From assembly GCF_055900595.2 (NCBI RefSeq), contig NZ_CM148325.1: DNA of 64,000 nucleotides; one strand, written 5' to 3'. Within the stretch, counting starts at the first letter, position 1. Every line of letters begins with the position of its first letter. The position numbers are program-made. Positions 9,001 through 11,650 of this stretch are shown here, piece by piece.

Positions 9001-11650
9001 CTGGCGCGTCGGCGCATACAGTGCTTTCGCTTTTTCTATATCGCCTGCTTTAATAGCGTCGGTAAAGGCTTTGGTGTCGGTCACCAGTTGCGTGGTTTCC
9101 GCCATGACATACGCTTTATATGCAGTAATTGCACCACCAAGACTTAACAGCGCATCACTTTGCGCCGCATCCGCCGTTGCTTCACCTTTGACGATCAACT
9201 TCCCTTTCGGGTTAGTCAGCAGACCGCAGGTCATATCGTATTCGCCAGGCTGTAAATTCGCCGTCATTTTCTGGCTAAAACCAGGGGCGATATTTTCCCG
9301 CTCTTCCACCACCATCACGCCTTTGAGGATCTCCCACTCCAGCGCCTTCTGGCTATGGTTCTGAATAATGAACTGTGTTTTCCCGGCGTTAACCGTAATG
9401 GTCATCGGTTCGCACTGCTTATCTGTCACAGTGACTTTGACCTGCGGAATATCAGCGGCGTTAGCCATAAAAGCAGAAGAGAACAGCGCAGCCACGCTCA
9501 ACTGCAATGCGTTACGACGGAAGTTAATGGTCATGACGAGACTATCCCTTTAAAGTATGTTGTAACTAAGCAAAAGTTTGCGTCATTTTCGTTACGCGGA
9601 GCGAGACGCTGTCGCCCCTGCGCGCGGCGGCAGAGCAAATGCCACCAGCGCCGGGATGAGATAAATAAACCAGACGGCGACTTCGCTGACGCTCGGCGCT
9701 TCCTGATAACCAAAGATACCTTCCATCAGCGTACCGAAAAGCGAGTGAGTTGAGAGCACCGCGCTCATATCGAAGGCGATTTCCTGAAAGTGGTTCCACA
9801 GCCCGGCTTCATGAAACGCGCGAATAGCACCTGCCGCCAGCCCTGCGGCGACGAAGAGAATAAAGAGGCTGGTCCATTTAAAAAACGCGCCAAGATTGAG
9901 GCGAATACCGCCCCAGTAGAGCAGGAAGCCGAGCACCACGGCTGTAGCAAGACCGAGCATTGCACCCAGCGGAGGCCAGATCCCGACATCTTGTTGAAAC
10001 GCCGCCAGCAGGAAAAAGACCGACTCCAGCCCTTCCCTTGCAACGGCAAAAAAGACCATCATCACCAGCGCCCAGCCATGATGATTCCCACGCTGCAATG
10101 CGCTATCGACTGCCTGTTCCAGTTGCACTTTGACGTTGCGCGACACTTTACGCATCCAGAAAACCATCCAGGTGAGGATCACCACGGCAATCACCGCCAC
10201 GATACCTTCGAACAATTCCTGCTCTTTTTGCGGAAATTCGCCGGTGGTTTCATTAATGAAGATACCCAGCCCCAGGCACAACGCAGCGGCTAGCAACACG
10301 CCAATCCACATGACACCAATCCATCGACCTCGCTGGGTACGCTTAAGATAGCTGGCAATCAGGCTGACAATCAGCGCGGCTTCAAGTCCTTCGCGCAACA
10401 TAATGAGAAACGGAACAAACATGCCACCCACCCTTAAACGTTTTTCTGAGTCAATCTATGCAAAGAAAGGTAAATCGCAGTGATAGCGATTATCATTACG
10501 GTGAAGAAAAACACAAGCGGAATGTAGTGATAATGATGAGGAAATGTAAATTTTTTTTGAGAGAAAATGCAGAGGGCAATCACTGATTGCCCTCTGCCTG
10601 CTTCTGATTATGACGTGGGATTTTCGGTAAAACGCCTTCCCTTACCCTTCCTGCAACCGTGACGGCGGCGCTGAATGATAGTGCGCGTCGGCGTCAGCAA
10701 AGCGTTTTTGCATCGCCGCTGACGGTGCTTTACCCAGTAAACTAAACACCACAATCCCAATGCTACCGAAGATAAAGCCCGGAATAATTTCGTACAGACC
10801 CAGCCAGCCGAACTGTTTCCAGACAATAACCGTCAGCGCGCCAATGATCATCCCAGCCAGTGCACCGTTACGCGTCATGCGTGACCACATCACCGAGAAC
10901 AGCACCACCGGACCAAACGCCGCACCGAAGCCTGCCCACGCGTAGCTTACTAAGCCCAGCACACGGTTTTCCGGATTCGCCGCCAGCGCAATTGCCACCA
11001 GCGCCACCACCAACACCATCACACGCCCTACCCACACCAGTTCTTTCTGGCTGGCATGTTTACGCAGAAATGCTTTGTATAGATCTTCGGTAATCGCACT
11101 GGAGCACACCAGCAGCTGGCAACTTAACGTCGACATCACCGCCGCCAGAATCGCCGACAACAGAATCCCGGCAATCCACGGGTTAAACAATATTTGTGCC
11201 AGTTCGATAAACACGCGCTCAGAGTTCTGGTTTACCGCACCGGCAACCGCTGGATTATTGTTAAAGTATGCAATGCCGAAGAAACCGACCGCCACCGCGC
11301 CTGCCAGACAGAGGATCATCCAGGTCATGCTGATACGACGCGCATGGACAATGCTATAGTGAGAATCCGCCGCCATAAAACGCGCCAGAATATGCGGCTG
11401 ACCGAAGTATCCCAGCCCCCAGCCCATCAGCGAGATAATGGCAACAAAGTTCAGCCCTTTGAGCATATCCACGTTTTCGATGCTCTTTTGTTTGATTACT
11501 TCCAGCGAGTCACCAAACCCACCAACGCTAATGATTACGATAACCGGCGTCAGGAGCAGGGCAAAAATCATCAGGCTGGCCTGAACAGTGTCAGTCCAGC
11601 TCACCGCGAGGAAACCGCCAATAAAGGTGTAAAGGATCGTCGCAGCGGCC

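What the first reader, a model, noticed from the sequence alone, without database searches (positions are those of the whole stretch)
9592..10422. efeU is intact, so the efeUOB ferrous iron transporter is probably functional
EfeU reads as one 276-codon frame with both REGLE motifs. In K-12 efeU is known to be disrupted by a frameshift, making the system cryptic. Together with the missing IS1 this shows the window is from a non-K-12 strain.
Basis: partly seen in the sequence, partly recalled or inferred. Interest (0 to 1): 0.3.

Follow-up and report, generated by a model that had tools for sequence, protein, structure and literature searches.

The report
Intact efeU iron permease gene
The window carries a normal, unbroken efeUOB iron-uptake operon, which is the usual state outside laboratory K-12, so the finding is correct but ordinary; the DNA comes from Escherichia cryptic clade I rather than from typical E. 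coli.

Summary
Window 9592..10422 (minus strand) is a single 276-codon efeU frame with REGLE motifs at residues 10-14 and 129-133. It scores well above the curated cut-offs for the FTR1/EfeU families. K-12 MG1655 efeU lacks one G of the GG at efeU nt 106-107 (codon 36; window 10316-10317) and stops at codon 37, as published. The window has that G.

The window's EfeU protein is identical to O157:H7 Sakai EfeU and to the repaired K-12 protein, although the genes differ at 37-40 positions, all synonymous. efeO and efeB are full length. EfeB keeps its Tat motif and D235/H329/R347. A Fur box (15/19, the only such site in 64 kb) sits at -78..-60, unchanged from K-12. A working operon is therefore the best inference, but no function was tested.

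Intact efeU is the norm. The exact K-12 deletion allele occurs in about 366 of 5,417 complete E. coli genomes, mostly K-12 laboratory derivatives.

"Non-K-12" is right but understated. The IS1D site is empty, identity to K-12 is about 96%, and the nearest genomes (99.8-100%) are typed as cryptic clade I, ST485. Already known; low interest.

The parts
9592..10422 (-). efeU, 276 codons plus TAA, Ftr1-type inner-membrane iron permease, intact
   Evidence: ORF. Pfam FTR1 1.8e-89. NCBIfam EfeU equivalog 331 bits, cut-off 255. Protein identical to Sakai EfeU and to repaired K-12 EfeU.
10381..10395 (-). first REGLE (REXXE) motif, aa 10-14, in the N-terminal hydrophobic segment
10024..10038 (-). second REGLE (REXXE) motif, aa 129-133
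   Evidence: sequence read
10316..10317 (-). GG of codon 36 (GGT). K-12 has only one G here, which gives the frameshift and a stop at codon 37.
   Evidence: alignment; translation. [quoted passage not shown]
8407..9534 (-). efeO, 375 aa, periplasmic cupredoxin + M75 (imelysin) protein, 57 bp downstream of efeU
   Evidence: Pfam Cupredoxin_1 and Peptidase_M75. NCBIfam EfeO 774 bits. 1-2 aa differences from Sakai and K-12.
7130..8401 (-). efeB, 423 aa, Tat-exported DyP-type haem peroxidase/deferrochelatase, 5 bp downstream of efeO
   Evidence: Pfam Dyp_perox_N and Dyp_perox_C. TIGR01412 614 bits. SRRRLLKG Tat motif and D235, H329, R347 present. 13 aa differences from K-12 and Sakai, pN/pS about 0.06.
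10482..10500 (-). Fur-box-like site CGTAATGATAATCGCTATC, -78..-60 from the efeU ATG
   Evidence: 15/19 to GATAATGATAATCATTATC, the only site at or above 15/19 in the 64-kb window on either strand. Identical in K-12.
10460..10474 (+). CpxR-box-like site GCAAAGAAAGGTAAA (9/10 to GTAAA-N5-GTAAA), -52..-38
   Evidence: This is a consensus match only. Regulation by CpxAR is taken from the literature (PMC3852070).
10569..10597 (-). 13-bp-stem hairpin plus T-rich tail, a likely putP terminator that separates putP from the efeU promoter
6867..7122 (.). 100-bp REP/BIME-type tandem unit, 2.6 copies, directly downstream of efeB, with two Rfam naRNA4 matches
   Evidence: One more copy than in K-12.

Best explanation
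This is the ordinary wild-type efeUOB operon, in a strain of Escherichia cryptic clade I. The mechanism below is taken from published work on the family and is not shown here. The operon is repressed by Fur when iron is replete, repressed through CpxAR at high pH, and so expressed at low pH and low iron. EfeB is a Tat-exported haem peroxidase and EfeO a periplasmic cupredoxin-M75 protein; together they handle and oxidise periplasmic Fe2+. EfeU is a seven-helix Ftr1-type permease whose two REGLE motifs line the pathway that carries the iron across the inner membrane. Because efeU lacks the codon-36 single-base deletion that truncates the K-12 protein at 36 residues, all three components can be made and the system is expected to work as it does in E. 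coli O157:H7. Shown here: gene integrity, motifs, identity to a protein from a strain with a working system, and a conserved regulatory region. Inferred: expression and transport.
For: The frame is intact with both REGLE motifs, and the family scores are far above the curated cut-offs. The only indel against K-12 is the G at nt 106/107. EfeU is 276/276 identical to O157:H7 Sakai and to repaired K-12. All 37-40 nucleotide differences are synonymous, with pS about 0.18-0.20 and pN = 0, which indicates continuing strong purifying selection. efeO and efeB are full length with the expected domains, Tat motif and catalytic residues. Gene order and spacing (57 bp and 5 bp) match K-12. The Fur box is unchanged and is the only site at or above 15/19 in the window. 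The same sequence occurs in 8 independently assembled complete genomes, so the intact frame is not a sequencing artefact. For the literature: cryptic in K-12 and functional in O157:H7 in PMC3577903 and PMC2808357; component roles in PMC9174327; Fe2+ uptake at low pH and CpxR control in PMC3852070.
Against: There are no expression or transport data for this allele or lineage. EfeB differs from the characterised proteins at 13 of 423 residues. The region more than ~110 nt upstream of the ATG differs from K-12: the TRIP1b repeat is absent and the intergenic region is 219 bp rather than 542 bp. The sigma-70 consensus scan found one weak promoter-like site where shuffled sequence gives 2.8 on average, so the promoter is not located by my data. 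Hydropathy resolves six clear helices, and the motif-bearing fourth helix falls below threshold.
Confidence: 0.9

Rival explanations
1. The genes are intact but the operon is silent or impaired in this lineage for a reason other than the K-12 frameshift, for example the altered upstream region or the EfeB substitutions.
For: The distal intergenic region differs from K-12. EfeB has 13 substitutions. No significant promoter consensus was found.
Against: The proximal ~100 nt, with the Fur box and the CpxR-like box, are almost unchanged. Genuine Nissle 1917, the strain in which published work reports a functional EfeU (my recollection of Grosse et al. 2006; the paper is cited but not quoted on this point), also has a 219-bp putP-efeU gap. 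EfeB substitutions avoid D235, H329, R347 and the RR motif, and about half lie in the N-terminal signal-peptide region. Zero amino-acid changes in EfeU across about 19% synonymous divergence shows the gene is under selection, which is unlikely for a silent gene.
Confidence: 0.06
2. The system works, but 'ferrous iron transporter' is not the right description. Its physiological substrate may be Fe3+ delivered by EfeO, or iron stripped from periplasmic haem by EfeB.
For: Published alternatives exist. EfeB as a deferrochelatase and haem-iron use through O157:H7 EfeUOB are described in PMC3577903. Fe3+ uptake by an EfeUO minimal complex in B. subtilis is described in PMC9174327. It has been proposed that EfeU transports Fe3+ after oxidation (PMC3852070).
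Against: Nothing in the sequence discriminates between substrates. The alternatives are not mutually exclusive and do not change the point of the finding, which is that the gene is intact.
Confidence: 0.3
3. The intact frame is an assembly or sequencing artefact, or a revertant of a K-12-type allele.
For: None beyond the fact that a one-base difference decides the frame.
Against: The whole 1.2-kb region is 99.9% identical in 8 independent complete genomes. The allele differs from K-12 at 37 further positions. The flanking 64 kb is about 96% identical to K-12.
Confidence: 0.01

Closest known systems
EfeUOB (YcdNOB) of E. coli O157:H7 (Cao et al. 2007, Mol Microbiol 65:857; cited in PMC3577903 and PMC9174327)
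   Same: Same gene order and spacing. EfeU is 100% identical in protein to Sakai, EfeO differs by 1 aa, and EfeB is 97% identical.
   Different: At the nucleotide level the operon is only 94.7% identical. Sakai carries a 2.67-kb putP-efeU spacer containing ECs_1262, against 219 bp here.
efeU pseudogene of E. coli K-12 (b4490)
   Same: Orthologous locus, the same encoded protein once the frame is repaired, and the same Fur box.
   Different: K-12 lacks one G in codon 36 and terminates at codon 37. K-12 also has TRIP1b and about 323 extra bp upstream (PMC10888264).
EfeU of E. coli Nissle 1917 (Grosse et al. 2006, Mol Microbiol 62:120)
   Same: Intact 831-nt gene and a 219-bp putP-efeU spacer.
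   Different: 52 nt and 3 aa differences from the window, e.g. M8I and a C-terminal A276M.
Yeast Ftr1p / OFeT family (PF03239)
   Same: Full-length FTR1 profile match and two REXXE motifs.
   Different: The bacterial partner proteins are EfeO and EfeB rather than the multicopper oxidase Fet3p (PMC9174327). No solved structure of any sequence relative was found in the PDB.

Membership tests
EfeU / Ftr1-type iron permease (PF03239, NF041756) | Profile match above the curated cut-off over the full length | tested here: met
   FTR1 300 bits (cut-off 25.3), residues 1-275. NF041756 331 bits (cut-off 255). TIGR00145 352 bits (cut-off 304).
EfeU / Ftr1-type iron permease (PF03239, NF041756) | Two REXXE motifs | tested here: met
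   REGLE at aa 10-14 and 129-133.
EfeU / Ftr1-type iron permease (PF03239, NF041756) | Seven transmembrane helices, with the motifs in helices 1 and 4 | tested here: inconclusive
   Kyte-Doolittle 19-mers at or above 1.6 cluster into six helices: about 1-23, 38-56, 70-88, 146-170, 179-203 and 248-266. The segment around aa 118-140 that carries motif 2 falls below threshold. No dedicated topology predictor was available.
EfeU / Ftr1-type iron permease (PF03239, NF041756) | Iron transport activity | not testable with these tools
   Inferred only from 100% protein identity to O157:H7 Sakai EfeU.
efeUOB operon | efeU-efeO-efeB on one strand with short gaps | tested here: met
   Minus strand with gaps of 57 bp and 5 bp, as in K-12.
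efeUOB operon | EfeO with cupredoxin and M75 domains; EfeB a DyP peroxidase with a Tat signal and catalytic Asp/His/Arg | tested here: met
   Domains; equivalog models; SRRRLLKG, D235, H329 and R347.
efeUOB operon | Fur box upstream of efeU | tested here: met
   15/19 consensus match at -78..-60, the only site at or above 15/19 in 64 kb and identical in K-12. Fur binding itself was not tested.
efeUOB operon | CpxR-dependent acid regulation | tested here: inconclusive
   A 9/10 GTAAA-N5-GTAAA-like site at -52..-38. This is a short consensus with no significance estimate.
E. coli K-12 lineage | efeU codon-36 single-base deletion | tested here: not met
   The window has GG at 10316-10317.
E. coli K-12 lineage | IS1D between gfcA and cspH, and near-identity to MG1655 | tested here: not met
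   Empty site with a single GACAATACG. Identity is 94-98% by segment.
Escherichia cryptic clade I | Clusters with strains typed as clade I and is separated from E. coli sensu stricto | tested here: met
   99.8-100% identical to E400634, E200086, E500002, E600003 and 100117, which are typed 'Cryptic I' or 'Cryptic', ST485 (PMC13064198). 98-99% identical to the C-I strains 2013C-4282 and EC42405 (PMC10100065). Records below those clade-I-related strains in the ranking reach at most 97.4% over window 41000-64000.
Escherichia cryptic clade I | Whole-genome phylogeny/ANI, or the C-I-specific marker gene | not testable with these tools
   Only 64 kb is available, and the marker gene lies elsewhere in the genome.

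The most novel reading that the evidence does not exclude
Two readings go beyond the textbook one. First, EfeU is under unusually tight constraint across the genus: 0 of 276 residues changed between clade I and E. coli sensu stricto despite about 19% synonymous divergence, and only 0-5 changes across E. albertii, E. whittamii and other Escherichia. This would imply that EfeUOB matters far more in natural habitats than its dispensability in K-12 suggests. Second, the K-12 frameshift may be a naturally circulating allele rather than a laboratory accident, since it occurs in a chicken-meat isolate (TUM12357).
Probability: 0.35. Interest if true: 0.2.

Novelty: already known. Interest (0 to 1): 0.08.

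Why it matters
The finding matters little on its own. That efeU is intact and EfeUOB functional outside K-12 has been textbook knowledge since 2006-2007, and about 93% of complete E. coli genomes lack the K-12 deletion allele. The practical value is for annotation: the window should be treated as Escherichia cryptic clade I (ST485-like), a lineage of emerging clinical interest, with a complete low-pH iron-uptake operon. Comparisons with K-12 in this region should also allow for about 4-6% background divergence.

Tried and rejected
(1) I first suspected that the 94-95% identity of efeBOU-putAP-rut to all common E. coli marked a recombinational import from another species. I rejected this because the whole 64 kb tracks one rare lineage, and that lineage is typed as cryptic clade I in the literature.

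(2) I scanned the GTDB species representatives with a degenerate efeU pattern to find a donor species. The window's allele is about equally distant (46-51 nt) from E. albertii, E. whittamii, Escherichia sp. E1V33 and two divergent 'E. coli' representatives. E. fergusonii, E. marmotae and E. ruysiae were not hit by the pattern, so the scan is not exhaustive.

(3) The sigma-70 promoter scan gave one weak hit against 2.8 expected by chance, so it is not usable evidence.

(4) The PDB sequence search for EfeU found no relatives.

(5) The antisense and out-of-frame ORFs overlapping efeU (167, 132, 94 and 73 aa) have no Pfam match and are treated as spurious.

(6) My first guess at the Sakai coordinates landed in prophage Sp5; one search corrected it.

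(7) I first read the phoH-efeB difference as extra DNA in K-12. The overlap pattern of the BLAST pieces shows the extra ~100-bp repeat copy is in the window.

(8) 'EcN_Sk' appeared to show a frameshifted Nissle efeU. The reference Nissle genome has an intact gene, and EcN_Sk is a K-12/Nissle mosaic in this region.

Full report
**Observation.** The minus strand of window 9592..10422 holds one uninterrupted reading frame of 276 codons plus TAA. The ORF lister starts it at a GTG three codons upstream (10431). The ATG at 10422 is the start RefSeq uses for the identical gene in strain Z0117EC0005. The protein carries REGLE at residues 10-14 and 129-133. It matches Pfam FTR1 over its whole length (E = 1.8e-89). 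It also scores 331 bits on the NCBIfam EfeU equivalog model, whose cut-off is 255. The overlapping antisense and out-of-frame ORFs have no family match. The stated coordinates, length and motifs are all correct.

**Comparison with K-12.** The window is collinear with MG1655 1,091,659 to 1,026,679, in reverse orientation. MG1655 efeU (b4490) is annotated as an 830-nt pseudogene. The alignment contains a single indel: K-12 lacks one G of the GG at efeU nt 106-107 (codon 36, GGT; window 10316-10317). K-12 therefore reads ...RWIV-stop, terminating at codon 37, while the rest of the gene stays open in another frame.

**Is the system likely to work?**
- Putting the G back into K-12 efeU gives a protein identical to the window's at all 276 residues, and O157:H7 Sakai EfeU is also identical.
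- The genes nevertheless differ at 37 and 40 positions, all synonymous (pS about 0.18-0.20, pN = 0).
- The published literature reports a functional EfeUOB in O157:H7 (Cao et al. 2007, as cited in PMC3577903 and PMC9174327).
- efeO (8407..9534) and efeB (7130..8401) follow on the same strand after 57 bp and 5 bp, as in K-12. Both are full length and score far above their equivalog cut-offs.
- EfeO has the cupredoxin and M75 domains and differs from Sakai by one residue.
- EfeB differs at 13 of 423 residues (pN/pS about 0.06), but keeps the twin-arginine motif and D235, H329 and R347.
- Upstream, the last ~100 nt before the ATG are nearly identical to K-12.
- That stretch holds a Fur-box-like site at -78..-60 (15/19 to consensus), the only site that good in the whole 64 kb, and a CpxR-like box at -52..-38.
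- A strong hairpin terminator for putP lies further upstream.
- The generic sigma-70 scan was uninformative.

I conclude that the operon is very probably functional. Expression and transport are inferred, not shown.

**Mechanism, from the literature rather than my data.** EfeU is a seven-helix Ftr1-type permease. EfeB is a Tat-exported haem DyP peroxidase. EfeO is a periplasmic cupredoxin-M75 metal-binding protein. The operon is Fur-repressed, acid-induced and CpxAR-controlled, and it supports Fe2+ uptake at low pH (PMC9174327; PMC3852070). Whether the permease finally moves Fe3+ produced by oxidation, or iron taken from haem by EfeB, is still debated. The sequence does not settle it.

**How unusual is an intact efeU?** It is not unusual. 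An 80-nt K-12 probe centred on the deletion matches exactly in 368 of 5,417 complete E. coli records, two of them only partially. The rest align with a gap or with mismatches. The 60 listed exact matches are almost all K-12 laboratory derivatives. Records carrying the deletion plus a nearby SNP would escape this count, so it is a lower bound. All nine Escherichia efeU genes compared (the window's among them) give 831-nt intact frames, K-12's only once the missing G is restored, and they differ by 0-5 residues.

**Where the window comes from.**
- efeU is intact.
- The IS1D site is empty, with a single copy of the 9-bp target GACAATACG.
- Identity to K-12 is 98.2% (pga), 94.2% (efeBOU), 95.3% (putP to cspH) and 97.1% (gfc to mgsA).

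The divergence goes further than that. For calibration, in this same region K-12 is 97.3% identical to Nissle (phylogroup B2) and 98.4% identical to Sakai (phylogroup E), while the window is 94-95% identical to each of them across efeB-rutG. Only 8 complete genomes match at 99.8-100%, a few more match at 98-99%, and the records below those reach at most 97.4% over window 41000-64000. The near-identical genomes are GEMS isolates typed "Cryptic I" (one simply "Cryptic"), ST485, OND:H45 (PMC13064198). The 98-99% matches 2013C-4282 and EC42405 are named clade I strains (PMC10100065). The window therefore comes from Escherichia cryptic clade I, a sister lineage of E. coli sensu stricto. This background divergence explains the synonymous differences in efeU without any special event at the locus.

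**Verdict.** The observation and interpretation are right, the phenomenon is already known, and interest is low. The useful additions are:
- the exact position of the K-12 lesion in window coordinates;
- the protein-level identity to the EfeU of O157:H7 Sakai, the serotype in which the system was shown to work;
- the population frequency of the K-12 allele;
- the clade I assignment.

Noticed in passing
whole window 1-64000: The window belongs to Escherichia cryptic clade I (ST485-like). It is 99.8-100% identical to 8 complete genomes typed 'Cryptic I', while the records ranked below the clade-I-related strains reach at most 97.4% over window 41000-64000. In the efeU region, 5,126 of 5,417 records are only 90-95% identical.
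   Followed up: yes
window 10423-10641 (putP-efeU spacer): The spacer is highly variable between strains. It is 219 bp here and in Nissle 1917, 542 bp in K-12 (which contains the TRIP1b repeat, absent here), and 2,673 bp in O157:H7 Sakai (which carries an extra gene, ECs_1262). Only the ~100-170 nt next to efeU are conserved.
   Followed up: partly
window 6867-7122: A 100-bp REP/BIME-type unit is repeated 2.6 times directly after efeB, one copy more than in K-12. Two copies match the Rfam family naRNA4 (nucleoid-associated ncRNA) on the minus strand at 6945-7022 and 7045-7122.
   Followed up: partly
window 40897-40905: This is the empty IS1D site between gfcA and cspH. The window has a single GACAATACG where K-12 has the 9-bp target duplication on either side of IS1D.
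   Followed up: yes
L005 (NZ_CP134370.1, strain TUM12357) 2936-3765: A 5.03-Mb isolate from imported chicken meat carries the K-12 codon-36 deletion. It is 99.98% identical to K-12 over the 6 kb fetched, so the 'K-12' frameshift may also circulate outside the laboratory, or this strain may be a close K-12 relative.
   Followed up: partly
L007 (NZ_CP172017.1, strain EcN_Sk) 3693-4522: This 'Nissle' assembly has the K-12 frameshifted efeU allele, and its putP-putA is 99.97% K-12-like. Yet it keeps the short Nissle-type spacer, and the reference Nissle 1917 genome (L009) has an intact efeU. The locus looks like a K-12/Nissle mosaic.
   Followed up: partly
window 26001-28000: This is the most divergent stretch against K-12, at 85-91% identity compared with about 96% elsewhere. 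By collinearity it falls in the yccE area. I did not examine it.
   Followed up: no
window 5609-5802, 23037-23079, 39724-40146: Rfam gathering-threshold matches unrelated to efeU: Ysr251 (antisense RNA family, + strand, near phoH/pgaD), ES036/CssrF sRNA, and the cspA-type thermoregulator 5'UTR (near cspG/cspH).
   Followed up: no
window 7130-8401 (efeB): EfeB is much less conserved than its partners. It has 13 substitutions against K-12 and Sakai, compared with 0 in EfeU and 1-2 in EfeO, and about half of them lie in the first 53 residues (Tat signal and N-terminus).
   Followed up: partly
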